Shown: in pieces, positions 9,709-32,524 of the stretch | Layout of the letters: every line of letters starts with the position of its first letter | Position numbering within the stretch: position 1 is the stretch's first letter | Assembly: GCA_051294905.1 (NCBI GenBank) | Contig: CM119373.1 | Span: 5,086,001-5,146,000 of the forward strand | DNA length: 60,000 bases | From: Botryllus schlosseri | Lineage: Eukaryota | Reading direction: 5' to 3' | Translations under genes and position numbers: made by a program | Notes under the pieces: generated by a model | What the model saw: only the letters and a program-made list of their open reading frames with translations | Database searches by the model: none | Told to the model about the DNA's origin: nothing

Positions 9709-12700
9709 AAATGGATTCTAGCCTAAGCATACTATCCCTAAACGCCAATGGGCTTAACACCCACTGGTTCAAAGTTAAAAACTTCCTTAAAAAAGAAAAA
9801 AACTGGAATATAGTATGCTTTCAGGAGACTCACAGGGTAGATACAAATAAAATAGGAAAATGGACAGAAAAAAACGGATACCTATACTACCCAAACCATA
9901 TTAACACAGGACAAATTTGGACGGATACAGAAGAAGGGAAAAAACTCTATTATAGAGGAACGAGTATAGTTATTAAAAAAGAAATAGAAACCAAATTCGG
10001 AATTGATCACCAGATTATAAAAGAACATAGGGCCCAAGCGCTAAAACTTACGCATAAAGAAACGAACGAAAACACCTCTGTATATAATATATACGGACCA
10101 AGCGATGTTGGAAGACACCAAACAACATTCTATAATGAAATAATATCGGAACTTGAAAAACACCCAGACACCACAATAGTCTGCGGTGACTTTAACATAG
10201 TCACCGCAAAAATAGACTCGAAAAACATCCAGAACTTTAAGCTAACACCCGCGGCCAAAATCTGGAAGTCCTTTACGGAAATTTATAAAATCAGGGACGC
10301 ATGGCGTTGGCGAAACCCAACAAAAAAACTATATACGATCATGAAGACAAGACAATCGAGGCGCATAGACAGGATCTACGTCTCAGAAAGACTCCTAACG
10401 AGAGTCAAAAGAATAACATACCAACTTAACACCATCTCGGACCACATCTTTCTTCAAAAAATAACAATAGAAGAGTCGGCAAACAACATAAAATGGGGTA
10501 ATGGAACCTGGAAAAGTGATCCCAGGCATTACTCCAATGAAGAGCTCTACAAAGAAATAGAAGAGGTCCACCTAAAATGTACAGAAAGAAAACCAATGTA
10601 CAATGATGTATACGAATGGTGGGATTACCTTAAAAGAGAAATTAAAAAGCTGCTAAAACATCACAGCTGGACCAAAAGGGTCGAAACCAACCAAAAAACA
10701 GAAGCATTGAGAGAGGAAATAGGTCGAATCCAAAACGACCCAAACACGGACGAGGACCCCTTCGAAGCCATCAAACAAATAAAGAGGCTCGAAGATGACG
10801 AGACTAGACATCAAGCCCAGCTCTACAAAATAAAAGATCTAGAAGAGGGCGAACGACCAACTAAATACTTTTTTCAAAAAATAGAGCAAAGAAAAGAGAG
10901 AAAAGTACTTAATAGTGTGGTCAATGAAAATGATATGGAAATAACCACCAAAGAAGAGGTTATTAAAACTGTAGAGGATTATTACACAAAACTGTGGAAT
11001 AAAACCGAATACACTAACACAGGCCTCCAGGAAAAGTACCTTGAACAAGTGGAAGGGATAGAAATATCCCAAGAGCAAAGAATAGACTTGGAAACCCAAA
11101 TAACCGAAGAAGAAATAAAAGCAATAATACAGAAGATGGAAGGTGGCAAGACTCCCGGGTCGGATGGCCTACCCAGAGAGTTCTATGCCACCTTCTGGAA
11201 AGTGATTAAAAAAGACCTCCTAGACGTAATCAACAACGCGTATATATTTGGAGGCATATGCGAAACGTGGGCGGATGGGATATCCACGATAATATATAAA
11301 AAAGGTAACCCCGCAAACCTCAATAACTGGAGGCCCATCACATTACTTAACACTGATTATAAAATCCTAATGGCAATTATATCAGCCAGACTAAAAGGAA
11401 TATTACCTGACGTGATACTCAATACACAAAAATGCGGCATAAAGGGTAGAAAGATCACTGATGTACTCAGAAACACCCAAGCCGCGGTGGACTACGCAAA
11501 AGAACGAGGCAAACAGCTATTCCTGGTCAATTTTGACCAGGAAAAAGCCTTTGATAAAATAAATCATGAATATATGTATAGAATTTTGGAGGGATACCGC
11601 CTCCCTGGGAACATCATTAACCTAATAAAAAAACTATACAGCACTTCAAACAGCAGAATACTCGTTAACGGAGCCCTTACGGGAAAAATACATCTAAAAA
11701 GAGGAATAAGGCAGGGGTGTCCGCTAAGTATGGCGCTATACGCCATCTGCAGCGATCCCCTAGCCCGAAAAATTGAAAATAACCGAAACATCCAGGCTTT
11801 TAGACTGGGAAAGAGCACGATCAGGTTACAGCAGTACGCTGATGACCTGACCTGCTACCTCACCCAAGAAAAAGACGTCGAAATGATATTCCAAGAATTC
11901 GAACGATACGCAAGAGCGACAGGACAAAAATTGAACGCCAATAAAACTGAAATCCTACACATCCCACCGAGACGCGGTACCCTAACCAATAGATTCCAAT
12001 ACAAACACCTAATAAAACCAAGTATTAAAATACTCGGTCAAATATATGGTGTAAATCAAGAAAGAGAAACATGGGATATACGCACTATGAAAATAAAGCG
12101 AATTCTCAATGCTTATAAACAAAGACGATTATCCTGGGTGGGGAAGAAAACAATCCTCAACTCCATGGCGTCCAGCCTCATCATATATAATGCCAGAGTA
12201 ATTGAGATGCCAAAAAAATATCAAAAACAAATAGAAAAGATGTATTTTAATTTTATCTGGAATCCGGAAAAAATGGAATCAATATCGAGGAAAACATTAA
12301 TAGCGGAGAAAGAACGAGGCGGATTTGAAATACCCGATGTCGAATCTAAAATAAAAGCCTGCGAAGTAGAGAAAATACTCGAATTGAAGAAAATAGAAAA
12401 ACCGAATGAAATATGGCACCAATATGCGATATACGAAATCGGGACAAGAATAAAACAAATAAACGAGCGACTGTATAAAAATACGGAACCTCACAAATAC
12501 CCTGTCCCCCGAAAATGGATTGACAGTATCGAACTTAGTAAGAAAATAGAATTCGATGAAGAGGAGTGGCAGGAAGCTACGCATAAAAGCTTATATAAAG
12601 CAATAAAATGTCTAAAAGAAAACAGACCAACTATAAAAACGGAAGAAGGGAAAGATATAAACTGGAAGAAGATCATCCAAACACAATATCAAGCCCAAAA

Positions 12701-13166
12701 AACTATTACGAATCAAGAACTTATCATAAATTTCAAAACTGCACACAACGCGTACATTTTCGGCAATAAAAAACGCAGCCGAAACATAACCCACACAACA
12801 ACCGGGAAAGCGCTAGACCTAAAGTGCAAATTTTGTAACGCGGATAATGACGACGCAAAGCACATCCTGACGTCATGCAGATATGCAAAAAAAATCATAA
12901 CCCACCTAGAGAAGATAATTGGGAGGAGTATAAGTACCAACAATATACTCTTCAACATCGGAAATCGAAAAATGGACTGGACAATCCTGTCCATCTACAA
13001 AAAAAGCATCATCAACTTCAAAATATCACTTGATATTGAAAATAGAAAAGTTGCGGATGAAAATATAACAAAAAAGATAATAAACAAAATCAAAAGAAGA
13101 GTCAGCCGTATAACAGCTGACACACACACAAACTATATACTTGACAACATAGACAAATTGACTTAA
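9705..13166 (+). CDS. B1 ORF2 (1153 aa), AP endonuclease + reverse transcriptase + CCHC domain
   Basis: Motifs SLNANG, CFQETH, GDFN, RIDRIY, ISDH; KTPGSDG, NWRPITLLN, DQEKAFD, GIRQGCPLS, QYADD; CKFC...HILTSC. Overlaps the ORF1 stop as ATGA. Confidence 0.96.
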   Translation: MKMDSSLSILSLNANGLNTHWFKVKNFLKKEKNWNIVCFQETHRVDTNKIGKWTEKNGYLYYPNHINTGQIWTDTEEGKKLYYRGTSIVIKKEIETKFGIDHQIIKEHRAQALKLTHKETNENTSVYNIYGPSDVGRHQTTFYNEIISELEKHPDTTIVCGDFNIVTAKIDSKNIQNFKLTPAAKIWKSFTEIYKIRDAWRWRNPTKKLYTIMKTRQSRRIDRIYVSERLLTRVKRITYQLNTISDHIFLQKITIEESANNIKWGNGTWKSDPRHYSNEELYKEIEEVHLKCTERKPMYNDVYEWWDYLKREIKKLLKHHSWTKRVETNQKTEALREEIGRIQNDPNTDEDPFEAIKQIKRLEDDETRHQAQLYKIKDLEEGERPTKYFFQKIEQRKERKVLNSVVNENDMEITTKEEVIKTVEDYYTKLWNKTEYTNTGLQEKYLEQVEGIEISQEQRIDLETQITEEEIKAIIQKMEGGKTPGSDGLPREFYATFWKVIKKDLLDVINNAYIFGGICETWADGISTIIYKKGNPANLNNWRPITLLNTDYKILMAIISARLKGILPDVILNTQKCGIKGRKITDVLRNTQAAVDYAKERGKQLFLVNFDQEKAFDKINHEYMYRILEGYRLPGNIINLIKKLYSTSNSRILVNGALTGKIHLKRGIRQGCPLSMALYAICSDPLARKIENNRNIQAFRLGKSTIRLQQYADDLTCYLTQEKDVEMIFQEFERYARATGQKLNANKTEILHIPPRRGTLTNRFQYKHLIKPSIKILGQIYGVNQERETWDIRTMKIKRILNAYKQRRLSWVGKKTILNSMASSLIIYNARVIEMPKKYQKQIEKMYFNFIWNPEKMESISRKTLIAEKERGGFEIPDVESKIKACEVEKILELKKIEKPNEIWHQYAIYEIGTRIKQINERLYKNTEPHKYPVPRKWIDSIELSKKIEFDEEEWQEATHKSLYKAIKCLKENRPTIKTEEGKDINWKKIIQTQYQAQKTITNQELIINFKTAHNAYIFGNKKRSRNITHTTTGKALDLKCKFCNADNDDAKHILTSCRYAKKIITHLEKIIGRSISTNNILFNIGNRKMDWTILSIYKKSIINFKISLDIENRKVADENITKKIINKIKRRVSRITADTHTNYILDNIDKLT

Positions 13167-14239
13167 AACACAAAAACAAGACAAAAAATGAGAACGAAAC
13201 ATAAATCACCCCCCCAACGGGAGCCCAAACGCAAGTTTGGCCAACTCAACGGAAACTAAAGAGATAAAAACAACAAAAATCTCTTCAGGAGAGTGGGGAG
13301 GCGACGACAAAGAACCCCCCAACTGCACGCAACCAGCGGTTGGCCTTCGCTCCACCAACGGAAATACGGAAATATCAAAAATCGGATAAATTGGAGTAGT
13401 TGGTTGTACTAAGGTACACACCCTCTACTCCAGTAAGAAGAATAAACACATGAGTGAAAACATAAGAAGAAACCGTTAAAAGTTATGTTCAAATGTACCA
13501 GTTTAAAAACCTTTAAGTTAGAAAAATCAAAAATCAAAAATAAATAAAATGTGTAATAAAGACCCCGGCGGGAGGTAGCCCTAGTCTCAGAGAGGGCTGC
13601 CAAACGCCGGCGGATACGGAGAGCCGTATAAAAATAAAAAAAAAAATACCTCTATGGAGCGGACACTTTTTATAAATTCTGAAAGCTCCAAGAAATTGGA
13701 GTATTTGGTTGTTATAAGGTTCGCGTAAGTATTAACGGCTTGTTTCAGATTTAAAGACCCGTCGATTGAGCCGCTGCGGCCACTGTAGCTAAACTACCGT
13801 AAAACTTATTTATATTGTACCGTACTACTGCCGTACCTAGGATAGAACGTCTTCTTAGGCTACTTCTACTTTACTTCTTTTCTCTCTCTTTGCCGGCGAC
13901 GAACTTCGAGTCTCCTTTAGACTCAACTCTCTTCAGGTCTTGACTCTCCCTCTCGAGTCAAGACTTGTCGAGCTCTCCCTCTCCTAGTCTTGGCTCTCTC
14001 TCTCGAGCCAAGTCTAGGAGAGTCTGACTTCACTCTAGCGCCTCTCTCTAGAGACGTCGAGAGACTGCCTTCTTAACCTCGAGTGAACTCGCCTGACGTC
14101 AGCCGTCTGGCGAGTATCGTTCGATCTTACCGTGCCTCTTGAGCGAGCAGCCTACGCCCATCGAGACGTTAGTATCGATTTCGCGAGCGTCTGGAAACGC
14201 CTTGCCTTGCGTTCGATAGATAGACAGAAAGACAGTAAG

Positions 14240-15502
14240 ATGGCTTATGCAAACGCATTAACAGGACAGGGAAATCATCAAATTACATACGGGAACAGGC
14301 CTAGATCACTGGACATAACAACGCCACTTGACTGCCAGACAACAGAAGTGATAGATGCTATCACCACTCACCCTGCACTCAAGGAATACAGTGAACACAT
14401 CGCTTCTATCTTCCAAATCGGCAGAACAACGTTCAACATATCTTTTCACACACACCCACAGACAGAGACGATTCGCGAAGAGTTCCTCGAGAAAACAATC
14501 ACGGGAATCAACCTCGCAAACGGTACGATGTACGTTAGAAAGCCCAGGCCACCGGCGGCACAAGTCAACATCAGAGCTGTGCCAACGGAGGTGGAAGAAC
14601 GCGAAATCAGAAACAAAATCGCACAATACAACTGCGGCACGGTCCGTGACATCAAACTGATATATCACAGGGGCACTAACCTGCAAAATGGGTACAGGCA
14701 AATCAGTATGGAAGATTACATACCGGGAAGACTCCCGTCTTTTATTTACCTAGGGCAAGCACCCTGTAAAGTATATACACCTAACGACGAAGGAAACGAG
14801 ACGTGTTTCAAGTGCCTGCAGAGAGGACACACGGCAAGTCAATGTCCAAACACAACAGTCTGTTTCCTTTGCAAACAAACAGGGCATCGTCGACACGAGT
14901 GTCCAAACAAAAAAGAACAACAAACAGTCACAAATCAGAGGAAAACACTGAAGGTAGATGAACACATCACACAAACAGATATGGAAGTCTTAGATGAACC
15001 TGAACCCGAACAAAACAACGAAGAACAGAGCCCAACCCCTGCACCAAGTGAGGCAGATGTTGAGGAGACAGAGAATGAGGAAACAGAAGGAGAGGAAGAA
15101 AAAGATGATAATGAAGAAGAGGAACCAGTAGTAGACTTCTTTAACCTAGAGGAAAACTCGCAAGCACCAAGTGAACTCGACGAAACGATCATTCCAGGTT
15201 CACAACAAGAAAGTGAAGCTGGAGATCTACAAATAGACACAAGTGGAGACGAAAGTCAAACACAGCTAGATAACGGCCAAGGCAGCAAAAAGCCAAAACA
15301 CACCTTGAACAAAGACAGGAATAGCCAAACGTCGATCCTTCGACAAAGATTTGAAGTTAGTCGTTTCACGGAACAGGAATTCTTTAGTGCAGCACAACGC
15401 TCACCAAATAAAAGAAGCGCCGAAACACGGAGCCCAACTTTGCCAACGTCTAGCAAAAGCAGACGTAAGCTGGCGAAGCCAAGCCCGGACAAAAAAAAAT
15501 AG
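14240..15502 (+). CDS. B2 ORF1, zinc-knuckle protein
   Basis: The MAYANA start aligns with B1 ORF1; two CCHC knuckles; open frame. Confidence 0.88.
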   Translation: MAYANALTGQGNHQITYGNRPRSLDITTPLDCQTTEVIDAITTHPALKEYSEHIASIFQIGRTTFNISFHTHPQTETIREEFLEKTITGINLANGTMYVRKPRPPAAQVNIRAVPTEVEEREIRNKIAQYNCGTVRDIKLIYHRGTNLQNGYRQISMEDYIPGRLPSFIYLGQAPCKVYTPNDEGNETCFKCLQRGHTASQCPNTTVCFLCKQTGHRRHECPNKKEQQTVTNQRKTLKVDEHITQTDMEVLDEPEPEQNNEEQSPTPAPSEADVEETENEETEGEEEKDDNEEEEPVVDFFNLEENSQAPSELDETIIPGSQQESEAGDLQIDTSGDESQTQLDNGQGSKKPKHTLNKDRNSQTSILRQRFEVSRFTEQEFFSAAQRSPNKRSAETRSPTLPTSSKSRRKLAKPSPDKKK

Positions 15503-15539
15503 AAAACCGAAATAGTAACCCAGCCCCCTCCGCTATCCA

Positions 15540-18500
15540 ATGGCTCTCGATATCATCTCTCTCAACATAAACGGGCTTAACGCTCATTTTTACAAGCTCA
15601 AATGTTTCTTAAAAAATAACAAAAGATGTAATATCCTTTGCATCCAAGAAACTCATAGGGGGGATAAAAAAAGAATAAACAACTGGGCCCAACAGAATAA
15701 CTGGACATACATCCCAAACCACATCGATAACGGACAGCATTGGACAGACAAAATAGGGAATAAAAAACACTACTACCAGGGAACTGCGATGCTCGTAAAA
15801 AAGGAATTAGAGATCAACCATACCATAGAGAATACCACCATAATAGAAGATCGAATACAAATGATTAAATTAACCAACAAAGAGGACGACCAGCCAAAAT
15901 ACATATACAATGTATATGGGCCGCCTGATGTGGGGAGGAATCAAACGGACGTCTTCAAGATACTAACACAGCGCATCGAACCCCACGCAGACAGCGCCAT
16001 AATTTGCGGCGACTTTAACATATTAACTACACTGTAAAAAATCTGGTAGATTTACTGAGAAATCTCTGTAAATTTTACAACGAATTATCGGTCGCAGCCA
16101 ATAACTGTGCGTAGCTTGTAATTATATATTTTGATATGTAATATTACCTTATTTTAGCTGTGAAGTCAAGTTTCAAGAATATCTTCGCAAAATTACTGAC
16201 AGTTACTCGTAACAGCAGTTTACCAGGCTATTGGGAAGATTGATTAGCTTCATAATCGCTGCAGCCAATATATACGTGGAACTGAATGTTACTGATATAT
16301 CATTCTCGGGGTGATTTAACCTGATTCAACCTCGTTCGCAAAACTGGGGCGTGTCGTACGGAAATTGTTGGCCCCAGTACCAATTTCAGTATAGTACATA
16401 GTAGGGTACAAGAAACAACTGACAATCGTAGCTAATGTGGTTACACCATAGCCATTATATTATATTATAAGGCTGTGGCTATACGGCCGTTCTCGCTGGT
16501 TACATTCGTTGTTACGGATAGGGCTGATAAGTTAGAAAATCAGTTTAGGATGTTTAATATTGTTCGGGAAACTAGAAATATCAGCACCTCATGCTCAGTT
16601 GACCATTTGTTATGGCGGACAAGGCGACCTGTAACACCCGTTGCTTCGTAGTAAACAACCAACGCACAACTGTGACATCACAAGCAGCGTCTCGTTAAGT
16701 AAGTACAGTAAGTAGTGAACAACACTTGGGCTAAATATCAATTTATACGAAATTAGATGGAAAAGAAAGGGACTATATGTAATGGTAAATGTTTCTGTAT
16801 GAGAAAGAAATGACCTAAGTCAAATATTATAACGTGGCCAGTAAATATTATTGATGGCATGTCAGCGGATGAATACCCCTTATTTCGAAATCGTTCGAGT
16901 GTCGTATCGTCGTCTGGCCATTATTGAGATTTGAGCAAAGGGTGGAGCGAAGCTTGTTGTTCTTGATTAAAGTGGACACGATCGTGGAAGATTCCTAGGA
17001 ACGCTGAATGGGATACGCATCGTAAAAGGTACAGTAGGCTACTACATAGTATTTGTTACCGTGAATATCTGCGACTGTGCAGTGTGCACACCACTTTGAT
17101 TTCATGATTGGAATATTTCATTCGCCGCATTCTCTGTTCTATTTTGGGATATAAGTCGACTTATATAGTGAACTGTGACACCACATACTCCGCCGCGGAG
17201 TTGAAACTGTTGGCTTGTTTATGTAATTTTGGGGCCATAGCATAGAGATTTTTTTATCCACTGCTGGATTTGTTAGGCAGGCCTCAAATGAGGAACCTTT
17301 GGCTTCAGTACATTAGATAAAGTTAGTCATGAATCTCTGCTATATCATGTACAAGGCGGAGCCTTCATCACACAATGTACCAGTACCGGTACTTCAAAAC
17401 ATGTTGTATTTTTTTAGCCTATTTGTCTCAAGTCTTTATAATGTCATGTCTAGGTTAGGAACTTTGCTTTATATAGTGACTTACTCATGAATTCTTTTTA
17501 GTGGAACTGCAAGATACTAGGTACACAGAAGTAATGAGGACGAGAAAAAGAAACAACGGGAAGTTTGGCCGGTGGTGGAATTAATTCACCTTTTCTTGAG
17601 ACCACTCGTGTTACTGCATGTCTCCTAAAGAAGAATTAGACCTCCAGCAGCAATACTTTCCCATCGATAACCACTTCATCGTGATATCATGAATGAATAT
17701 ACAGTTTGTTCCAATGTCATTTTGGGAATGTGAAGAAAATTTTGCGATATTTTAGCATCGGGTTGCTTTTCGATAGGTATGGATGTACACGTGAATTTAC
17801 AAGGCGGTATGTAATCATGATTTACAGGGACAGCATGTAGGTAGGTAGGCGGTAAAATGACAGTATCGGTCGCAAATGTACAGGAGAACATGTAGATTGG
17901 ATATACCGGAGGTAACTGTAACATTACAGTCTGGCGTGTAAAGTGAGATTACTTGACGAGTGTAAGTGAAATTTACATTGACTAACGGTAATGTCAGATT
18001 ACCACGAAATGTCTGGCTACCGTGCTTCCAAACATTTCGCGGTAAATCGAGGTTTTTATTTTTTACAGTGTAACAGTCTGGACTCAAAAAACAACAGAAA
18101 TTTTCTGCTCACCCCAGCGGCGAAGACCTGGAAAGCATTCATAGAAACATATAAATTAAGAGACGTGTGGAGATGGAGGAATCCAAATAAAAAACTCTAC
18201 TCCGTAATCAAAACCTTCAATTCGAGAAGAGTCGACAGAATTTACATAGCAGAGAGATATCTCAGCCATGTGCAAACCTGCACATATAACATCAATACAC
18301 TAGCGGATCACGTGTACCTCCAAAAACTCAAACTGAGGGAACCCCAACAACAGCACTGGGGCAATGGGTATATGGGTAAGAACGACGCAAGATACTACAC
18401 TGATGAAAACCTACAGAAACAGATTATCGATTTACACAAAGAATGCATAGAAGAAAGACCACACTTCGAGACAATATACGAATGGTGGGATCACTTCAAA

Positions 18501-21031
18501 AAAAGAGCAAAAAAACATCTACAGCTCTATGCACGCCAAAAAAGAAAGGCGGAAATAAACAAGGAAAACAAACTACGTGACGAAATATCACGCTTACAAA
18601 GGGACAACAACAACGTCTCAGACGTAACAAACAAGATCAAAAAGCTGAAGCAGATGGAGGAGGACAAAATCCTCCACCAATGCCGGCTGAGCAAGGTCAA
18701 AGATATTGAAGAAGGCGAAAAGCCAACTAAATATTTTTACCAAAAACTGAAACAGAGGAAGGAGAGCAAAATAATTACAACTGTAGAGAACTCCTCCGGA
18801 AAGGAGACCACAAGCAGTACGGAGACTCTGCATGAAATAGAATTATTTTACCAAAAGCTGTGGGCAAAAACACAACAAGAAGATCACCGTGTACGAAAAG
18901 TTTACCTAAGTGCGATTGAAGGCGTTCACATCACACAGGAGGAAACAGAGGACCTGAACACAAAGATCCAAACCACGGAAATAAAAAACGCCCTTTTCGG
19001 CATGGACGGAAATAAAACCCCAGGCTCTGACGGCCTATCAAAGGAATTTTATACGTGCTTTTGGAACATAATCAAAAATGATCTATTAGAATTAACCAAT
19101 AACACATTCACCTTCGGAGGCCTTTGCGAAACCTGGAAAACCGGAATTACGATCATGATATATAAAAAAGGGCACCCGAAACACCTGAAGAACTGGCGAC
19201 CCATTCATTACTCTACTAAATACTGATTATAAAATGATAACATCCATATTGGCAAATAGACTCAAACCCATCTTACCGAATTTGATCAGTGACACCCAAA
19301 AATGTACAATAGTAAACAGAAGCATAATAGACATCCTTAGGAACACACAGGCCGTCATAGAGACAGCCAAGGAGAAAAATCAAGAACTCATAATCGCCAA
19401 CCTGGACCAGGAAAAGGCTTTTGATATGATCCATCATGAATACCTATATAAAATTATGGAGAAATATCGCCTACCTAAACATCTGATACGCTTGATCAAA
19501 AACATCTATAAATCAGCCAAGAGCAAAATCCTGGTAAACGGAGGATCAACAAATGCGATAAAAATTGAAAGGGGAATCCGCCAGCGGTGTCCACTCAGCA
19601 TGGCACTATACGCCATGAGCTGTGACCCCCTGGCAAGGAGAATACTGAAAAACGAGAAAATCGAGCCCTTCAGATTCGGGAAGAGCAGTATCAAAGTCCA
19701 GCAATACGCAGATGACATAACCGTATATCTGAGGAAGGAAGAACACCTGAAACATGTCATCAGCGAGTTTGAACGCTTCGAAAGAGCCACGGGGCAAAAA
19801 TTGAACAAGGACAAAACTGAGATACTGCACATAAATAGAAATAAATACCAAACCCGAAAACACCACTCCTTCGATACACAAAAAAAGAACACGATCAAAA
19901 TACTGGGACTACACTATGGTGCGAACCAATCCAACATCGTTTGGAACGAAAAACTATCCAAAATAAAACGGACGCTGTCCGCATATAGACAGCGGAAGCT
20001 CACCTGGATCGGGAAAAAAAACATCTTAAATTCCCTAGCATCAACCCAATTTGTATATAGTGCCAGGGTAATACACATGCCCAGGCGCATACAAAAAGCG
20101 ATCGAAAGAACCTACTTTAACTTTCTTTGGCACCCCGAAAAAATGGAAGCGATCTCTAGGAAAACTCTAATCGCGGACAAAAAAAAGGGGGGCCTTGAAA
20201 TACCGGACGTAGAATACAGAGCGATTACATGCCAACTCGAAAAAATAGCAACGCTCAAAAATTTAGAACAACCAACGGAATTTTGGCACAAACACGCCAT
20301 CTACCTGACTGGAACCAAAATGAAATCCATCAACCCAAAATTATATAATAACAGCGAACCGCACTTATATCCCATCCCAAAAGACTGGAAGGATATTCTA
20401 AAGCTCGCGGAAAACTTGAAATGGGACGATGAAGAATGGAAAGACTCTTCACATAAAACATTATATCTATCGGTCAAAAACTCCAAAGAAATTAGACCAG
20501 AAATCAAGACTCGGAGCGGAAAAGACGTAAATTATGAAAAAATCCTCCAAACGAAAATGAAAGGAGAAAAACTAATAACTAATGAAGAGATGATAATCAA
20601 TTATAGATCCGCGCTAGACGGATATATATTCGGGAACAAAAAATGGGGCAGAAACCTGCGTTTCGACAATTACAACAGGCCCCTGGACCTGAATTGTAAA
20701 TTTTGCGATTCGACCAACGATAACGTAGCCCACATAATTTGGGATTGCAAATTCATAAAGAAAACAATCAAAGAACTCGAAACAGCGTTAAAAACTAAAC
20801 TTTATGAAGACGCTATACTCTACAATGAAAACACAAAAAAAAACAGACTGGCTACTAATATCAATTATGAAAAAGGGTATAATTAAACACAAAATCGCAC
20901 TAGACGTCGAGAACGTAAAAGTCGGAAAAGAAAATTTGACCAAGAAAACACTGGAACACTGGGGAGGACCAAAAGGAGAATCGAGACCCAGCCAGCAACC
21001 CTGCTCCGGGCCGAAGCTATATCAAAAATAG
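15540..21031 (+). pseudogene. B2 ORF2 (APE-RT-CCHC), disrupted
   Basis: Fragments 15540-16029, 18073-19226, 19234-20886 and 20804-21031 are homologous to B1 ORF2; QQYADD present. Confidence 0.88.
16030..18070. mobile_element. Non-autonomous CACTA/EnSpm-like element
   Basis: Termini CACTGTAAAAAA / TTTTTACAGTG with a 2-bp TSD (TA). Removing it restores the in-frame GDFNILTNSLDS of ORF2. Confidence 0.85.
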
Positions 21032-21535
21032 AGCAATATTTGATAAACCACACATAATGCAATCTTTAAACAATAAACAATGACTGCTTTGGGTTCCAAA
21101 CGAAAGTTTGGTAAATCCGACAACGATCGACAGGGAAAAAGCGGGAAAAAGCCCTGCCGGGAAGGAGGGAGGGGCCGTTCAAAAACCCCCAGACCACGCG
21201 CCACCGGCGGGAAGCTTTTAACACATAAACGCAAATATACAACATCACACAACTCCAACCATTGGAGTAGTTGGTTGTACTAAGATACATGAACAACAAC
21301 CATGCAGCCAACCATTGGTGTAGCTGATTGCACCAAGATACCTGAACAATATGTTCAAAAAATAAGAGCAAATAAATAAGAAGAAACCGTTAAACTCCTA
21401 AGTTAGAAAATACAAATAATAAAAAAATAAACAAAAAATGTGTAATAAAGACCCCGGCGGGAGGTAGCCCTATTCTCAGAGAGGGCTGCCAAACGCCGGC
21501 GGATACGGAGAGCCGTATAAAAAAAAAATACCTCT

Positions 21536-22842
21536 ATGGCCACAGATAAGAGGAAACAGCGACCACGCTCGCTAGATGTGCAAATTCCAAGCAATATGCA
21601 GGGAAGCGAGGTATTCCAAGCCGTGCTTGCTTATGAACCGCTCAAGCCTCTGCTGAACAAGATAGACTCTATGTACTGAATAGGCTTCGAAACTTTCAAC
21701 ATCACAGTAAAAGACACACCGGATGCGCAGAAAATCAAAAACAATATACTCTCAGCGTGCCAACATGGCATACCAACAGCCAATGGCACCATGAGAGTCA
21801 AAGATGCAAGCGAACCACTAAAACTTATAAACATACGCGCTGTTCCAACAGAAGCGACGGACGCAGAAATCGCGATATTGTTAGCTCTCTACCAGTGCGG
21901 TAAAGTTATCAACGTAGTGAAAGTAAACCACAGCAAAACACAATACCACAACGGGTATAGAAAAGTACTCATCGCCAAATACGAACCAGGCAGGATTCCG
22001 CAATACCTAAAGATACGCGGCTACAGCTGTAAGGTTTTTCTCCCACCGGGAGAGCAAACGGTGGAAATATGCAACCAATGCCTACAGCATGGGCACATTG
22101 CAAGAAATTGCGATAATGAAAATCAAGTGCCTTCACTGCCAGCAAACAGGCCACAAAAGAATGGCTTGTCCGCAGCTGAAGGAAAGCTACCCTACGATTA
22201 CAGAGCAACGCAATAAAATCACAGAAGCTCAAATACACAACACTCGTGAACAAAGTAACGCACAAATGCATGAAGTGCATGAAGAACATGTACAAATGCA
22301 CGAAGAACACGTACAAATGCATGAAGAACAACAAGAAGAAGAAAAAACACACGAAATTGTCGACAATGACAATGTATACATAGTAAACACACCCGAAGAA
22401 GAAAACAAAGAAGAAAAACAAAGAAGAACAATACAATGATACCAGCGAAGGAGAAACCGATGAACACACTTCAGGTGACCTCCAAATAGAGGAGACACCG
22501 GAAAGTGACGGAAATAAAACTCCACACTCGGCAGGAGACTCAAATTGGGAAGACATTTCCCAGCACACAATTAGGGACAGTACGCAGATACCGACGCCAA
22601 CTTCGCCACCGTTACAATCAAGGCGAAAAGCGCTGTCCGACCCAGCGCCATACAGAGTAAGCGCAGATGACCTAAAAAACCTGCAAGCGTCTCCTATCAA
22701 ACGGACAAGGAGCGGCAGTTCGGACGAAAATCTCAAAGTCAAAATAAACAAAAATAGGCCAGTAGTTCCGCCAAAACCCGCAAGTAAGCTACGCAGGACA
22801 GGCGTGGCAGAACAGGACTTGAAAAACCTCTTCAAATCTTAA
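21536..22842 (+). pseudogene. A2 ORF1, with premature stop and frameshifts
   Basis: MATDKRKQRPRSLDVQIP...DSMY*, then homologous fragments ending QDLKNLFKS*. Confidence 0.82.
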
Positions 22843-22859
22843 AATTCGGCGTCCCACCA

Positions 22860-25800
22860 ACATACATAGTGTCTATAAACATAAACGGAATACAAGCGCA
22901 CTGGAACAGCTTGCAAGTTTTCATAAAAACAAAAAAAGCCGACATCGTATGCGTCCAAGAGACGCATAAAGTCAAAAAGCACCAGCTCACAACCTGGGCA
23001 GCAACACAAGGCTACAAGCTGTTTCTGAATGCGCTTGACAAAGATGAAAAATGGGAACCACAAGACGAACAAGGGCCCAAACACTATCAGGGAACAGCAA
23101 TCCTACTTAAGGAACGCTGGCTCCCTGACAACGCGAAAATACAACACGAGATCATCAACACACACCGCGCTCAGCAAGTAACCATTCAGCTAGAGCACGA
23201 AGAGTCGATGACAATCACTAATGTATATGCCCCATCATCAGGTTTGCAAAGGAAACTAGACTTCTACAAGGAATTGACAAATAAGCTAGAAGCTAGAACA
23301 ACACGCACGAACATACTCAATCATCCTTGGTGATTTTAATATCGTCACAAAAGCGATAGACGTTGAACGCGCAGATACGTACACCGAAAGTCCGGCATCC
23401 ACCGCCTGGAAACAGTATATAAAAGTACACAACGTCATAGATGTCTACCGATGGATCTTCCCAAACACAAAGATATACACATCAAACTCCCCTAAAGGCA
23501 AGAGAAGAATAGATAGAATTTACATAGGGAAAAACGTGATAGGCGACGTAAAAAGCATAAGCCTACCAAATCAACCCAATTTCGGACCACACACACTACG
23601 TAGAAATGCACCTGAAACAAAAACAGATGGAAAAACGGGGAAAAGGTAGCTGGAAGAACAACACAGCGCACCTAAACCAGCAAGAATACAAAGCCCTCAT
23701 ACGAAACGAAATCACAATGTTTGAACTAGAAAAACCATTCTACCCAAATATAGGACAATGGTGGGACGCCTTAAAGAACAAAATTAGAATAGCATCTATA
23801 CAATACGGCATAGAGAAAAAACAAGCAGAAACGCAAGAAACAAACCAGAGAAAGAAACTACTACAGAACCAAAATTTAACAAATGAGATGAGAGATAAGC
23901 TAACCAGGGAACTGAAAACCCTGGAAAAGGCTAAGATAGACTTCCTGATGAACTCGGAATACAAAAACAACATGGAAGATCAAGAGAAACCGACAAAACA
24001 GTTTTATGACAAACTGAAAGTAAAACAAAAGGGAAAGAATATCACGGAGCTCACCGGTAACAACAATGAGCAAATTCGGGGGGAAAACAACATCCTTACG
24101 CACGCACAAAAATACTACCATAAACTTTGGGGCATCGCGCACAGCGCACCGAAGGAGAGCATTGACACCTTGGTCAAAGAGCTCGATAAACAAATCTCCC
24201 AGGAACAACAAAAACTTCAAGATCAAGTGATATCTGAGGAAGAAATAAAAGCAGCACTAGGCTCACAGAAGACGTCCACAACACCGGGACCAGATGGCCT
24301 TTCGCCAGAATTTTACACAGCCTTTTTTGAAACTCTTAAGAATAGTGCACTGTTGTATATTTCTGAGAGACTATGTTTCATCAACACACCAGGATCCTGG
24401 GGCAAATCACAAGTAACATTAATCCCCAAAAAAGGAGACACAAAACTCCTAGATAACTGGCGCCCTATATCATTATCGAATTGCGACTATAAGATAATGG
24501 CAAAAATCCTGGCCAACAGAATCAAAGAATCAATGCCGCATATAATAGGGCAAGCACAAAAATGTTCAGTCCCGGGCGCCAAATCTCGGACGTCCTAAGG
24601 AACGTGGCCGCAGCTAAAGACCTGGCACAACAAAGAGGAACACCCCTACTGATAAGTAATTTCGACCAGAAAAAAGCCTTTGACATGGTGTCACAAGAGA
24701 CCCTCTTCGCCATCATGGAACACCTCAAGTTCGGGAAGAAGATCACTGACTTGATAAAACATGTGTATCAAAACTCGACCAGTAAAATTCTAATAAACGG
24801 GGCAATGACAGAAAAAATCAACATCAGAAGGGGCATCCGACAGGGATGCCCGCTAAGCACATACTTATACGTCTTAGCTGCAGAACCCCTAGCTGAAAGC
24901 ATCCGGAAAAACAATCTCATAAATGGAATCAAACTCGGCAACAAAACAACTCAAATTCAACAATACGCGGATGACGTGACAATTATCACAACGAATTACA
25001 AATCCATAAAACAAGCCATAACAGAATTTGAAAAACTAAAACAAACCACAGGCCAAGAACTTAACTTAAATAAAACCGAAATTTTACAAATAAATTCACC
25101 GAGAGATGAAAACATCTACAAAAAACTAAGAAAACCCACCATTAAGGTGCTGGGACAGCAGATTGGCGAAAACCAAAACCACCTAAACTGGGACAAGGTG
25201 GTACAACGGGTACACCAATCGTGCGCCGATAACAACAAAAGAAAACTGACATGGTATGGAAAAAAGACGATTATCAACACCATAATCGCCCCAAAAATCC
25301 TATACCAGGCGAAAACCTGCCCCCCACACAAAAACATCATTGCCGAACTAAACAACATCATCTTCAAATTCATGTGGGCCCCAGAAAGAATAGAAGTCAT
25401 CAGGCGAAACACCATTATGAGGGCCGTCAATGAGGGGGGATTCGACCTCCCACACATCGAGAGTAAAATTCAGGCTTGCCGACTGGAAAAAATCTTGGCA
25501 GCAATGGACGAACCGAACCAGTTCTGGCCTCACCATGCCATATACTGCCTTGGATCTAAAATCAAGTCCATAAACCCTGACCTACAGAACATCAGAGGCC
25601 CCAAAAGAGACCTCCTCAATGAGGAGTGGAGAGAGCTTCTGAACATTAGAGAACTCTTAGGCTGGACGCGAGAACAATGGGGAGAGGCCACGCAAAAACA
25701 ACTACACAGAGCCCTCAGAGATAAAAACACGAGTGTCAACCCAGACACCCCCCAGGCCCAATGGTCCAAACTACTATACGACCAGCCTGGGGAGGAACAA

Positions 25801-26310
25801 CTCATAAAAAACAACGAAAAAATAGCAGGCTATAGAGCCGCGCACGAGGGCCACCTCTTTGGGGCAACTCGTAAAGAACTAAACATACTCACCACCAGCA
25901 CAGGCGGAACGGCAAGGCTGCACTGCAGACAGTGTGGACACCCCAACGAGACCACTGCCCACATCTTGTGGGAATGCAGCGCAGCCAAACCAATCCTCAG
26001 CCTCCTCGAAAATCTCTTGCGTAAGAACGGAAAGAAAACACCACTACAGAGAGACAATATACTCTATGCGAAACCTACTGAAACTAACCAAAAACAATCA
26101 AAATTCATAACCACATTGTACAAAACTCAAATGCTCAAACATCGACTCGTATTAGATCGAACCAACCAAAATGAATACGACAAAGCCAATCTGACCAAAA
26201 ACATATACAACAGAATCACAACAACAGCAAAAAAGAGGCTTGCAAACAAAACTTTCCTCTGTGGTGAGCTTCAAAACCTAAACAACAAGATTTTAGAGGA
26301 ATTATCTTAA
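22860..26310 (+). pseudogene. A2 ORF2 (APE-RT-CCHC), frameshifted
   Basis: Track ORFs 22869-23333, 23606-24598 and 24562-26310 carry CVQETH, NWRPISL, QQYADD and CRQC..HILWEC. Confidence 0.88.
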
Positions 26311-27308
26311 AACCCCTGATCAAGATGGGTTCCAAACGAAGGTTTGGTTAATCCATCAACGATCTAAAAGGGGAAAAAAGGCTAAAATCCTTTCAATAGA
26401 GTGGGGAGGGGCCGACCCAAAAACTCGGACCTGCTCGCGACAGGTGAGCTGCTTCTTAGCCACAAGCAGAAAAAGCAAAACCTACCCACTCCACAAATTG
26501 GAGTAGTTGGTTGTGGTAAGGTAAAAATTTATATTTAATTTAAAAACCAGTTACCTTAGTTAAAAATAATATGTAATAAAAATCCTGACCTGGAAGCGAC
26601 CCTACATCTAAGAGAGGGTCGAACAAAGGCAGCGAATACGGAGAGCCGCAAAAAAAATGTATCTTTTTTGACATTTTTGAAAGTGTCCTCGGTCCTTGGA
26701 GTATTCGGTTGTATTAAGGTAGCAACCGGCGTAAGTATACTAACTAAGATTTAAATACTGTTCCGGAGCCGCTGAGGCAACCTAGTGTAGTAATTACCGT
26801 AAACCTTAGGTTAATTTCTAGATTTACCTAGGCTACTTACTCATTTCTTTCTTCAATCTTTTCGTCGCCGCTGGACTTCCGTTTCACCTTCGAGTCTTCT
26901 GCAGACTCATCACCTCTCCCTCCTGAGACTTGACTGCTCTTTGTGGTCAGGTCTCAAGGAGTCTGTTTCTACCTCCACTAGAGCTTGACTCGTCTTCGTG
27001 AGTCAACTCTAGTCGGAGTCTTTTCTCTTCAGGTTCTGACTCGACCGCGTGAGTCAGAACTTGTCGAGTCTTTTCTTTAGAGACTTGACTCTCTCGAGTC
27101 AAGTCTCTACTTTCTCTCCCTCTCGCGTCTCTCCCTTGCGACGACGAGAGCCTTTAACCCTAGGTCAATTCGATTGTCTGACGTCAGTCGCCAGACATCG
27201 AACGATCCTTGCGCGTCTGGAAACGCCTTGCGAAACCGCGGTATCGACTTCTCGCTTGTCTGGAAACGCCTCGCTTTGAGTTGCATTACAAGACAAAAAC
27301 GCCACAAT

Positions 27309-28557
27309 ATGGCCTATTCAAACGCAATAAAAGGACGTGAATACCAGCGTATTACCTATGGACACAGGCCGAGATCACTCGATGTAATGACGCCTTTCGG
27401 CTGTCAAACAAGCGAGGTGATAGACGCCATTATCACAGATCCCAGACTTGAGCAATATAAAGAACATATATCATCAATATACCAAATTGGGAGAACAACA
27501 TACAACCTAACATTCCATCAACAAGCAGACACAGAATCAATTCGCGAAAGGTTCTTGGAAACAACGCACCTTGGAATACTTACAACAAATGGAATGATTT
27601 ACTTCCAGAAGCCGAGGCCGCCTGCAGCACAGGTTAACATTAGAGCTGTACCCACGGAAGTGGAGGAAGTTGAAATACGCCACAAAATAGCTCAATATCA
27701 ATGCGGCACGGTACAAGGAGTAAAACTAATATACCATAAAGGAACCGACATACACAACGGGTATCGGCGGATAACCATAGAAGGCTACACACCCTGAAAA
27801 CTTCCACCCTTCATATATCTAGGCCAAGCCCCGTGCAAGGTCTATCCCCCGAATAACGAAGGGAACGAGACATGCTACAAATGTCTACAGAGAGGACATA
27901 CTGCGAGCCAGTGTCCAAACCAAACAGCGTGCTTCCTGTGCAAACAGACAGGACATAGACGTGATCAATGTCCAACAAAAACTGATGAACAAATACCTTC
28001 AGGTCAGCGTAGAATACTAAAGGTCGATGAACACTTAACATCTGTCGAAATGGAGAGCCAGACCAACCTGATTTGAGTGAAAACGAAGAAAAAAGCCCAA
28101 CCTTTGTAGCGAGTGAGGCAGAGGTTGAGGAGACAGCCGAACAAGAAGACAAAGATGACAGCGAAGAAGAAGAAACAGCAGAAGACTACTTCAACTTAGA
28201 ACAACAACCACAAGCAGACAGCGAACTAGACAACAGTAATCGAAAGATCAGACAACGAAAGCAAATCGGAAGATGAACTACAAATAATCACAAGTGATGA
28301 TGAGACAGACGCAAACAGGGCTAAACAAAACCACAAGCGGTAGCCCGCCAAAACGTACATTAAACAGAGACAGATCCAACCAAACATCGATACTGCGACA
28401 AAGATTTGAGATTAGTAGCTTCACAGAAAAAGAGTTCTTTGGCCAAACACAATGCTCGCCAAACAAAAGAAGCAAGGACGTTCGTAGTCCAACATCGCCA
28501 ACGGCAGGCACAGCCAGACGAAAGCTGGCAAAGCCAAACCGCAGCGATGAGAAATAG
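27309..28557 (+). pseudogene. C ORF1, with stop and frameshifts
   Basis: MAYSNAIKG start; in-frame TGA at 27795-27797; knuckle region and C-terminus (QTSILRQRFE) homologous to B2 ORF1. Confidence 0.82.
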
Positions 28558-30130
28558 AAATGTGCCCTAAAGCGAACAAGTCTCCCCTCACCCCAAGGAA
28601 AAATGGATTTTGATCTAGATATAATTTCTTTGAACGTAAATGGAATGTCTACCCACTGGCATAAAATTAAAAGTCTCATAAAAACAGAAAAACATACAAA
28701 TATCGTATAAAAACAGAAAAACATATCGTATGTCTCACGGAAACCCACAGGGTAGACACTCAAAGAGTCCAAAAATGGGCAAACCAAAACAACTTCTCAT
28801 ACTACGCGAACCATATAGACCTGAAACAAAAATGGGTAGACCTGAAACAAAAATGGGTAGACACAGTAGAAGGGAAGAAGTTATACTACAGAGGAACTGC
28901 GATTCTAGTCAAAAAAGACCTAGAAAAGCAATACGACCTGGCACACAAGATAATTAGAAAAGACAGGGTGCAACTACTAACCTTCGGAGAGGAAACAAAC
29001 CTCTATAACATCTACGGCCCACCCGACGTAGGGAAGAACCAAACAGAGCTATACCAAGAACTTATAAACGAAATTGAAAGGAAACCGAATGATGCTATCA
29101 TCTGTGGAGACTACAACATCGTCACCGATAGAATGGATGTGAAAAACGACACAAACTTTACTATGACCCCAGCCGCTAAGATCTGGAAATTCTTCACCGA
29201 TATCTATAAAATCAGGGACATCTGGAGGTGGGGGAATCCGAAAACAAGGCTGTACACAGTAATAAAACACAAACAATCTAGAAGAGTCGATAACATCTAT
29301 GTATCAGAAAGATTCCTTAGCCGAGTTAAGTCATGCGAACACAAACTAAACTTCGTCTCTGACCACATCTTCTTACAAAAGATACATATAAGAATGAAAC
29401 CAAGGCAGAGCAGATGGGGCAAGGGAATCTGGAAAAACGACACCAGAGAATACGCAGATGATAGTCTACGGAAACAGATAGAAAACCTACACGAAAGATG
29501 TGTCCAAGACAAACCAATCTTTGATGACATCTATGAATGGTGGGATCAGTACAAAAAAGAAATGGGGAGACTAATAAGCACAAACGAAAGGCACAAAAGA
29601 ATCGCGGCAAATAAAGAAAAACAAGCGATACAAGAAAACATAGCAAAAACCTTACAAAACACCAGTGAGGACCAAAACACATACGAAGAAGCAAAAAAAC
29701 TCAAAAAAACAGAAGAAGAAAACATAAGATACCAATGCATACTGCACAAGTTGCATGACATCGAAGAGAATGAAAAACCCACCAAGTACTTTTACGATAA
29801 ACTAAAGCAACGCAAAGAAAGTAAAATCTTCACAACTTTAGTGAACGAATCGGGAGTAGAAACACAAAATAATATAGAAACTATGCGCGCAGTGGAAGAA
29901 TTCTATAAAAACCTGTGAGGGAAGTCAAAGCAAGAGGACTCCAAGCTGCAAGACGACTACTTAGAAAACATAAGTGATCTTCACATAAGTGAAGAAGAAA
30001 GAGCTCAGCTGGAAAGCCAAATAGACGAGGCAGAAGTCCGACACGCGATCCAAAACATGGAGAATAGAAAGACTCCCGGCTCTGACGGACCGTCCAAAGA
30101 ATATTATGCGACATATTGGAACATTCTTAA

Positions 30131-31987: not shown

Positions 31988-32524
31988 TTAAAAAAGAACT
32001 GACGGAGGTTATCAATAATGCTTATATGTTTGGTGGATTATGTAAATCATGGACAACGGGTATTACAACATTACTATACAAAAAAGGAGAACCAAAGAAA
32101 TTAAAAAACTGGCGGCCAATAACTCTCTTGAACACAGACTATAAAAATACTAACCGGAATCATATCGAACAGGCTAAAACCCATCTTACCAAACCTTATC
32201 CACCACACACAAAAATGTGCTATAAAAGAACGGCAGATAACCGACGTCCTAAGAAATACCCATGCGGTAATAGAATATGCCCAAGAAAAACAAAGAACTC
32301 CTGGTCATGAACTTGGACCAGGAAAAGGCATTTGATAGGATTCATCACGAATACCTCTTCAAAATCTTGGGGGTATATCAACTACCCAACAACCTGACAC
32401 GCATAATACGAGAAATCTATGAAAACGCCTCCAGCAAGATCCAAGTCAATGGAGCACTCACAAACCATATAAAAATAGAACGTGGAATCAGACAGGGGTG
32501 TCCGCTGAGTATGTCGCTCTACGC

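What the first reader, a model, noticed from the sequence alone, without database searches (positions are those of the whole stretch)
13390..13482. 3' UTR SL-like exon is embedded in anti-SL hairpins and echoes the 5' head
Seen: copies at 7282-7305, 13390-13413, 21261-21284, 26497-26520 and 35382-35405. Four retain GT; B2 has AT. Local antisense partners recur by different means: upstream ACTCCA (A1, A2, B2), downstream CTACTCCA (B1), and TT(A/G)CCTTAG pairing the donor (A1, A2). B and C copies have AAACCGTTAAA downstream, resembling TACCGTAAA in the 5' heads. Inference: this is an SL-RNA-like module about 150-240 nt before the poly(A). In head-to-tail arrays it could splice onto the acceptor of the next element or a downstream host gene, or act like the 3' promoter/terminal redundancy of Drosophila HeT-A/TART.
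Basis: partly seen in the sequence, partly recalled or inferred. Interest (0 to 1): 0.75.

Follow-up and report, generated by a model that had tools for sequence, protein, structure and literature searches.

The report
Spliced-leader mimic in LINE 3' UTRs
Five distantly related jumping genes (LINEs) in a sea-squirt-type genome keep a near-copy of the host's spliced leader near their tail end, usually folded shut in a hairpin, which suggests that they imitate a host RNA-processing signal for a purpose not yet shown.

Summary
The five 3' copies are real and sit at the stated coordinates. They are 2-3-mismatch copies of the host's 24-nt spliced leader (SL), which a literature consensus and capped RNA reads confirm. 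They lie in the 3' UTRs of five L1/Tx1-group LINEs whose ORF2 proteins are 34-63% identical and whose silent sites are near saturation. Still, 17 consecutive bases are invariant, including one shared change from the host SL, so the motif is under selection. Hairpin masking is strong for B1 (z -5.3), moderate for B2 and A1, and not significant for A2 and C. In B2 the GT donor was already lost before a 53-nt duplication, yet the first copy stayed unchanged (0 versus 5 changes): the exon, not splicing, is what is kept. RNA reads list no start or splice junction at the three 3' copies covered, but the elements are barely expressed there. Best reading (0.35): a closed, cis-acting SL decoy on full-length RNA that binds SL-recognising factors. 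Target pairing, 3' promoter and splice donor are weaker. The scan earlier noted SL-headed LINEs elsewhere in this genome; the 3' copy was noted only on this window.

The parts
13390..13413 (+). B1 3' UTR SL-like exon (differs from the host SL at positions 10 and 20), followed by GT
13414..13434 (+). B1 anti-SL arm; closes an 18-pair hairpin over the whole exon, with the exon's last four bases as the loop
   Evidence: 0/200; z -5.33; still 1/200 with the letter that the X1 contigs show at 13431
13469..13479 (+). AAACCGTTAAA motif shared by the B1, B2 and C tails; function not shown
13225..13240 (+). 6-bp hairpin with a 4-nt loop, conserved at the start of all five 3' UTRs
13563..13646 (+). B1 terminal structured segment after AATAAA (13555), plus poly(A); conserved in all five elements with a few two-sided changes; probably the RT recognition site (inference)
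   Evidence: z -5.37
7282..7305 (+). A1 3' UTR SL-like exon (changes at positions 10, 19, 20 and 1), followed by GT and an AT-rich 9-mer also found in the SL gene of L001
7237..7278 (+). A1 upstream partners: 7237-7252 pairs exon 3' half plus donor; 7261-7278 pairs the exon 5' part
26497..26520 (+). A2 3' UTR SL-like exon, followed by GT; local pairing not above shuffles
21261..21284 (+). B2 3' UTR SL-like exon, identical to those of B1 and C, followed by AT
21314..21337 (+). second, decayed SL-like copy of B2 (53-nt tandem duplication, 5 changes, also followed by AT); folds on itself
35382..35426 (+). C 3' UTR SL-like exon, GT and a decayed form of the B1 arm
7764..7789 (+). B1 5' head: exact host SL plus GT
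13655..13748 (+). B2 5' head: upstream anti-SL arm, SL-like exon (13695-13718), GT, and a branch-point/acceptor-like segment ending at 13748
   Evidence: 0/200; z -4.64
26695..26748 (+). C 5' head: SL-like exon, GT, downstream partner, weak acceptor-like AG
   Evidence: (1/200)
7459..7628 (+). head of element A2 (fragment X): begins at the last G of an SL exon, where A1's poly(A) abuts it; ends in the 11-bp word that is repeated at A2's start codon
   Evidence: end homologous to A1's 5' UTR end, 9/1000
7737..13646 (+). element B1, intact: ORF1 frame 8374-9708 (CCHC knuckle), ORF2 frame 9669-13166 (AP endonuclease + RT)
13647..21528 (+). element B2, broken (2-kb insert at about 16028-18070, frameshifts)
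21529..26657 (+). element A2 body, broken
930..7458 (+). element A1, broken; 5' end cut off by another repeat at about 929
26693..35635 (+). element C, broken by two inserts

Best explanation
The motif is a selected RNA mimic of the host spliced-leader exon in the 3' UTR of one clade of L1/Tx1-group LINEs. It acts in cis on the full-length element RNA and is not normally spliced or transcribed on its own. Shown: SL identity, deep conservation, hairpin closure in B1 (weaker in others), exon kept after donor loss in B2. Inferred: the exon is a binding handle for host factors that read the SL sequence (SL snRNP or trans-splicing proteins, or SL-dependent translation and transport factors); the local arms keep exon and donor closed so that the spliceosome does not cut off the element's 3' end; the bound factors help the particle to assemble or to reach SL/snRNA-rich loci, where these elements land and pick up SL heads.
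For: 17-nt block invariant in 5 of 5, the longest invariant run of the UTR alignment (next 9); 7 of 20000 column permutations reach it. ORF2 identity 34-63%, fourfold sites 21-40% identical in the pairs computed. A1, A2, B1 and B2 fall in one RT clade with three unnamed relatives (SH-aLRT 97, quick tree, C left out), so one origin is enough. All five share G at position 10, unlike the host SL and the three heads; only 7 of 3358 laid X23 reads fit two places, so a G10 host leader is not common there. B2: 0 versus 5 changes in two tandem copies that both lack GT (one-sided chance 1/32). B1's two changes strengthen its hairpin more than any of 150 random double changes; A1's rank 7/150. SL-like copies in two heads are also closed by arms (0/200 and 1/200). 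DNA contigs of run X1 join the exact SL plus G or GT to several element heads (tables 5 and 5c), which shows repeated contact of this clade with SL sequence.
Against: No binding partner or function was tested. Pairing is not above shuffles for A2 and C, and the compensation test fails for 5 of 7 variant copies (18, 21, 37, 45 and 47 of 150). G-U-rich pairing is expected from a C-free exon and does not prove RNA-level selection. The SL gene of L001 itself shows no such closure (159/200), so the hairpin is not a copy of the natural fold in that species. Similarity to that gene's Sm-like stretch is borderline (A1 21-41/500, A2 40-66/500, others weaker). The B2 argument rests on one copy and could come from gene conversion. 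A DNA-level binding site would explain the invariance equally well.
Confidence: 0.35

Rival explanations
1. Target mimic (SART1-like): the SL-like exon and donor pair with the cut or opened strand of an SL-donor target during target-primed reverse transcription.
For: A1's poly(A) abuts the last G of an SL exon in A2's head; X1 contigs show SL plus G/GT in front of element heads; earlier unchecked notes report SL-donor preference in this genome (e1-7803915, e1-7804379); SART1Bm can start reverse transcription at target-like words inside its 3' UTR (PMC7265360, passages).
Against: 5 of 5 elements end in the terminal structure plus poly(A), none at the internal donor; 4 of 5 3' junctions (B1, B2, A2, C) are not at an SL donor; the fixed G10 is a mismatch to the host SL; closed hairpins hinder pairing.
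Confidence: 0.2
2. 3' promoter or start site (HeT-A-like, first reader): transcription starts at the SL-like A and gives a small capped RNA or drives the next element in the array; the exon would be a DNA promoter element.
For: Head-to-tail array; invariance of the exon without need of GT fits a DNA site; HeT-A and TAHRE 3' UTRs hold sense promoters (PMC5537684, passages); the bin holding B2's tail has X23 depth 5.8/6.8 against 0.5/0.2 upstream, with 107 reads running into poly(A) behind 21438; a promoter role of the SL exon in a nematode is recalled, not found in the library.
Against: No start or template-switch end listed at 13390, 21261 or 26497; depth around B1's copy is 0.1-0.23. The B2 signal lies on an A-rich stretch, is nearly absent in the two single-cell runs (0.0-0.7), and 94% of laid X23 reads fit only in part. 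None of the 5 copies starts an element. 855 loose ends were not shown.
Confidence: 0.15
3. Working splice donor: the motif is spliced to the acceptor of the next element or a host gene, or back to the element's own head.
For: GT kept in 4 of 5, as G|GTA like the SL gene of L001; acceptor-like segments lie 191-335 nt downstream in three places.
Against: No such RNA joint among the 15 shown (53 hidden); exon conserved without GT in B2; donor closed in B1; splicing removes the element's own 3' end; pairing between an element's own head and tail is not above controls (49/500, 183/500, 302/500, 357/500).
Confidence: 0.1
4. Functionless relic of an ancient SL capture, kept similar by gene conversion between families or with SL genes.
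For: Families sit side by side in arrays; C and B1 3' UTRs are 79% identical although their ORF2s are 50% identical, so UTR exchange may occur.
Against: Conversion from host SL genes would erase G10; A and B tails keep lineage-specific letters at 19-20 inside the motif; flanks on both sides have diverged (mean column identity 68%).
Confidence: 0.1
5. Poly(A) control through a U1-bound, unspliced 5' splice site upstream of AATAAA (mechanism recalled from viral and cellular cases).
For: The donor lies 54-160 nt upstream of the last AATAAA in all five.
Against: Explains the donor only, whereas exon positions 2-18 are the invariant part and B2 lacks GT.
Confidence: 0.07

Closest known systems
Tx1-clade LINEs and SINEU (Kojima 2015, PMC4494074; passages read)
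   Same: AP-endonuclease/RT elements, often target-specific (Keno in U2 genes); repeated addition of snRNA-derived pieces to 5' ends.
   Different: In the passages read the snRNA pieces are U1/U2 and at the 5' end; 'spliced leader' has 0 occurrences in that paper. Here an SL copy is fixed inside the 3' UTR.
SL-gene-specific elements NeSL-1, SLACS, CRE, CZAR (NeSL: PMC4640811 passages; the others recalled)
   Same: Non-LTR elements tied to spliced-leader sequence.
   Different: Those carry a restriction-like endonuclease; these carry an AP endonuclease. An internal 3' UTR SL copy is not something I know of for them (recalled).
SART1Bm 3' UTR target-like words (PMC7265360, passages)
   Same: A site-preferring LINE with target-like sequence inside its 3' UTR.
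   Different: SART1's words are 3-4 nt and prime internal starts; here the match is 24-26 nt, carries a fixed mismatch, is folded shut, and no internal start is seen in 5 of 5.
Drosophila HeT-A/TAHRE 3' promoters and TART non-terminal repeats (PMC5537684, passages)
   Same: Head-to-tail arrays; related sequence in 5' and 3' UTRs.
   Different: No start shown here; the shared piece is 26 nt and not identical between the two ends of one element; arrays mix distant families.
Ascidian-type SL RNA gene ('Chordata 1' consensus, PMC3795323 Table 1 passage; loci L001/L002)
   Same: 24-nt exon and G|GTA donor; a 9-10-nt AT-rich word after the donor in A1, A2 and the B2 head.
   Different: 2-3 fixed changes, no capped RNA seen, no matching intron stem, embedded in a long polyadenylated transcript.

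Membership tests
L1 group / Tx1 clade | ORF2 with AP endonuclease and RT, closest to L1 among solved structures | tested here: met
   Pfam PF03372 + PF00078; best PDB match L1 ORF2p E 8e-61 versus R2 1e-24
L1 group / Tx1 clade | ORF1 with CCHC knuckle (feature recalled) | tested here: met
   PF00098 in B1 and B2 ORF1; no family found in A1 ORF1 or the C fragment
L1 group / Tx1 clade | RT groups with named Tx1 references | tested here: inconclusive
   Only one relevant named relative (BAC82621.1, 'pol-like protein', zebrafish), and it lies on another branch; no labelled Tx1 set was available
L1 group / Tx1 clade | Target-sequence preference | tested here: inconclusive
   B1 and B2 share one 3' junction word; A1 lands at an SL exon end; A2 and C differ; 5 junctions only
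SL RNA gene | Exon equal to the leader on mRNAs | tested here: not met
   2-3 fixed differences (4 in A1 counting position 1); capped reads map to the exact head copy at 7764 (464 reads)
SL RNA gene | GT donor right after the exon | tested here: met
   4 of 5; B2 has AT
SL RNA gene | Sm-binding site after the donor | tested here: inconclusive
   A 9-mer shared with L001 in A1/A2 only, 21-66/500 shuffles; that this word is the Sm site in L001 is my inference
SL RNA gene | Own short capped transcript | tested here: inconclusive
   No start listed at the 3 copies covered; low expression; 855 loose ends hidden
SL RNA gene | Upstream snRNA-type promoter | not testable with these tools
   No genome held; this species' SL promoter is unknown
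HeT-A/TART-type 3' promoter or terminal redundancy | Transcription start in the 3' UTR that drives the next element | tested here: inconclusive
HeT-A/TART-type 3' promoter or terminal redundancy | Perfect repeat between 5' and 3' UTR of the same element | tested here: not met
   Head and tail copies differ at 2 (B1), 3 (B2) and 3 (C) of positions 2-24
SART1-type 3' UTR priming site | Insertions that begin at the internal target-like word | tested here: not met
   0 of 5 elements in the window; small sample
NeSL/CRE SL-specific elements | Restriction-like endonuclease | tested here: not met
   AP endonuclease at the N-terminus of ORF2
Any Rfam family | Covariance-model match | tested here: not met
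   Whole window: only U6 above its gathering score; B1 and A2 tails: nothing near a gathering score

The most novel reading that the evidence does not exclude
A LINE clade encodes a switchable spliced-leader RNP mimic in its 3' UTR: when the arm opens, the element RNA loads the host SL snRNP machinery and is carried to SL/snRNA gene loci, which would make target choice depend on RNA mimicry of a host snRNA and would explain the serial capture of SL and other snRNA pieces at the 5' ends.
Probability: 0.2. Interest if true: 0.85.

Novelty: new variant of a known kind. Interest (0 to 1): 0.62.

Why it matters
Why SL exon sequences are so conserved, beyond donating a cap, is an open question. A parasite that has kept 17 of those bases unchanged across saturated silent sites, in a place where they cannot give a cap and in one lineage without the donor, points to a factor that reads the SL exon itself in chordates. 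B1 has intact frames, so the motif can be mutated in a retrotransposition assay and used as bait. It could also show a new way by which a LINE chooses its site or controls its RNA.

Tried and rejected
No genome is held for this window, so no genome-wide count of copies or junctions was possible. Collection scans with the SL-like pattern: metagenomes gave 2 loci, both an SL gene/U2 repeat without a LINE; prokaryote genomes gave 2 and viral contigs 19 loci, none with an ORF2 match (0 of 23 loci), taken as chance. No RNA holder was listed for 12000-14300; this is no evidence either way. Idea that the tail's CCGTTAA pairs with the head's branch-point segment (seen as an inverted repeat) to allow back-splicing or to mask the acceptor: not supported within elements (B2 49/500 and 22 of 45 body windows as good; A2 357/500; C 183/500; B1 302/500); the best of 20 pairs were between elements (2/500, 10/500, 16/500). 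Idea that B2's AT is a spliced junction onto a head exon: 89/1000, rejected. Direct head-SL to tail-SL pairing: only -3 to -7 kcal/mol. General compensation between each variant and its arm: holds for 2 of 7. Rfam: nothing. The careful tree did not finish; the quick tree used 46 rows (B1, B2, A1, A2, the top 40 hits plus 2 named ones, of 120 listed); C was dropped as too short. Literature: searches listed no paper whose title or abstract start describes an SL copy in a LINE 3' UTR; I saw these as listings, and read passages only of PMC3795323, PMC4494074, PMC4640811, PMC7265360, PMC5537684, PMC7986045, PMC5137427, PMC3691228 and PMC4893630. Subscription papers and Repbase were not searchable, and no supplements were read; those of PMC4494074 and PMC3795323 may bear on novelty and on which species carry this SL.

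Full report
Setting. ORF2 has an AP endonuclease and an RT, ORF1 of B1 and B2 a CCHC knuckle, and the closest solved structure is L1 ORF2p. Only B1 has both frames intact. An 11-14-bp word at 7618, 13647 and 21529 shows the nesting: B2 and then a U6-B1 composite landed at the start codon of A2, so that 7459-7628 is A2's own head (its end matches A1's 5' UTR end, 9 of 1000 shuffles). A1's poly(A) abuts that head exactly at the last G of where an SL exon would be. No whole genome is held.

The leader. The 24-mer at 7764-7787 equals the 'Chordata 1' SL consensus in Table 1 of PMC3795323 (passage). In bulk RNA run X23 (about 6% read) 464 reads carry the template-switch primer directly before 7764, and in X22 25 molecules begin at 7763. 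So this is the capped leader of this animal, most likely an ascidian (inference). A metagenome scan gave two contigs with the exact exon, a GT donor and a U2 gene in a tandem unit of about 1.3 kb, a genuine SL gene of some species with this leader.

Observation. The window holds 8 copies within 3 mismatches, against 0 in 100 shuffles: three heads and the five 3' UTR copies at the stated places. GT follows 4 of 5. Distances to the poly(A) are 152-258 nt. The antisense words are there, but their weight differs. B1 folds an 18-pair hairpin over the whole exon (z -5.33, 0 of 200), and it survives the allele that the X1 contigs show in the arm (1 of 200). C has a decayed form of the same arm (17-18 of 200). 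B2 (2 of 200) and A1 (6 of 200) pass when I choose the segment, but not with fixed flanks (13, 36 and 41 of 200); A2 never passes (22-67 of 200). The ACCGT(T)AA echo has 7 of its 12 window hits in heads or tails but is short and absent in intact form from A.

Selection. In the pairs computed, ORF2 identity is 34-63% and fourfold sites are 21-40% identical. The five UTRs align at 68% mean column identity, yet exon positions 2-18 are invariant, the longest run (next 9); 7 of 20000 permutations reach it. All five have G at position 10, where the host leader and the three heads have T; positions 19-20 are lineage-specific. A quick RT tree puts A1, A2, B1 and B2 in one clade with three unnamed relatives (SH-aLRT 97). 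The simplest history is one ancient capture kept by selection. B1's two changes improve its hairpin more than 150 of 150 random pairs of changes, and A1's rank 7 of 150; the other five variant copies do not stand out.

What is kept. B2 has a 53-nt tandem duplication. Both copies are followed by AT, so the donor was lost before the duplication. The first copy is identical to those of B1 and C; the second has 5 changes. Under equal rates that split has a one-sided chance of 1/32. This suggests that the exon stayed under selection without a donor. It rests on one copy, and conversion could mimic it.

RNA test. I laid X23, X21, X22 and DNA contigs of X1 on 7740-27000 at 90% likeness. The bin with B1's copy has depth 0.1-0.23 in all RNA runs. 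No start, loose end or joint is listed at any 3' copy; the one RNA joint among the 15 shown lies in the insert within B2. But 53 joints and 855 loose ends were not shown and B1's body has depth 0-0.5, so this is a weak negative. One point is open: B2's tail bin has X23 depth 5.8/6.8 with 107 reads running into poly(A) behind 21438. The place is A-rich, the single-cell runs show 0.0-0.7 there, and most laid reads fit only in part, so I take it as probable noise, not as excluded. The DNA contigs join the exact SL plus G or GT to B2's head (13662), to an SL-like copy 16 nt further on, and, over 30 other letters, to the copy at 13390. SL-plus-arm-plus-SL-like heads thus recur.

Mechanism. The evidence favours an element-owned, selected mimic of the SL exon whose value does not depend on splicing and which tends to be folded shut. 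I think it most likely (0.35) that it is a cis-acting handle for host SL-reading factors on the full-length RNA, closed so that the 3' end is not spliced off, and used for particle assembly or delivery to SL/snRNA-rich loci. Every step after conservation and folding is inference. Target pairing as in SART1Bm (PMC7265360, passages) gets 0.2: A1 landed at an SL exon end, but all five elements end at the poly(A) and G10 mismatches the host. A HeT-A-like promoter (PMC5537684, passages) gets 0.15, an active donor 0.1, a converted relic 0.1, poly(A) control 0.07. Pairing of an element's own head and tail, which would allow back-splicing, was tested and not supported.

Comparison and novelty. It works most like the snRNA-derived pieces of Tx1 elements and SINEU (PMC4494074, passages) and the target-like words of SART1, but it is not an SL gene (exon differs, no transcript seen), not a TART-type perfect repeat and not a NeSL/CRE element (AP endonuclease). 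Membership in Tx1 proper was not shown by a labelled tree. Five library searches listed nothing on an SL copy in a LINE 3' UTR; Repbase and subscription papers were out of reach. Earlier notes of this scan describe SL heads and SL-donor preference on other pieces of this genome; they are unchecked leads, and I could test them only on five junctions. I rate the finding a new variant of a known kind, interest 0.62.

Noticed in passing
window 7618-7631, 13647-13660, 21529-21539: Two families only about 51% identical in ORF2 (B1, B2) share one 3' junction word, which holds the start codon of A2's ORF1: a possible element-into-element target preference.
   Followed up: partly
window 7628-7797: U6 retrocopy with poly(A) (Rfam), then about 27 nt that look like the 5' end of U1 (recalled; also note e1-7880426), then the exact SL plus about 10 nt, all inside one target duplication with B1.
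   Followed up: partly
window 7764-7797: 184 X23 reads fit the SL plus 10 nt and run on into a mixed consensus (agreement 0.64) that could pair back on those 10 nt and shares a 9-letter word with the SL gene of L001; it may be this species' SL RNA or an SL-headed short element.
   Followed up: no
window 16028-18070: High-copy 2-kb insert in B2 (empty site in X1 contigs) that is well expressed, with template-switch ends near 16920-16925 and a spliced GT..AG joint 17026->17500 in all three RNA runs.
   Followed up: no
window 13563-13629 and equivalents in the other four elements: Conserved terminal structure of about 70 nt after AATAAA (B1 z -5.37, A1 z -2.84), without an Rfam match.
   Followed up: partly
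window 7470-7496, 13724-13748, 26726-26748: Each of these heads packs a second donor-like word, a branch-point-like word and an AG into 18-26 nt, too short for an ordinary intron (inference); possibly a trans-splice acceptor.
   Followed up: partly
window 26658-26692: The 35 nt before C's SL-like exon seem to belong to another, high-copy repeat (69 X22 reads run on into other letters behind 26692).
   Followed up: no
L001:690-860 and L001:129-322: SL RNA gene and U2 gene in one tandem unit of about 1.3 kb in two metagenome contigs.
   Followed up: partly
window 30124-31994 and 32527-33745: Two inserts with terminal inverted repeats (about 200 bp for the first) split the RT region of C.
   Followed up: no
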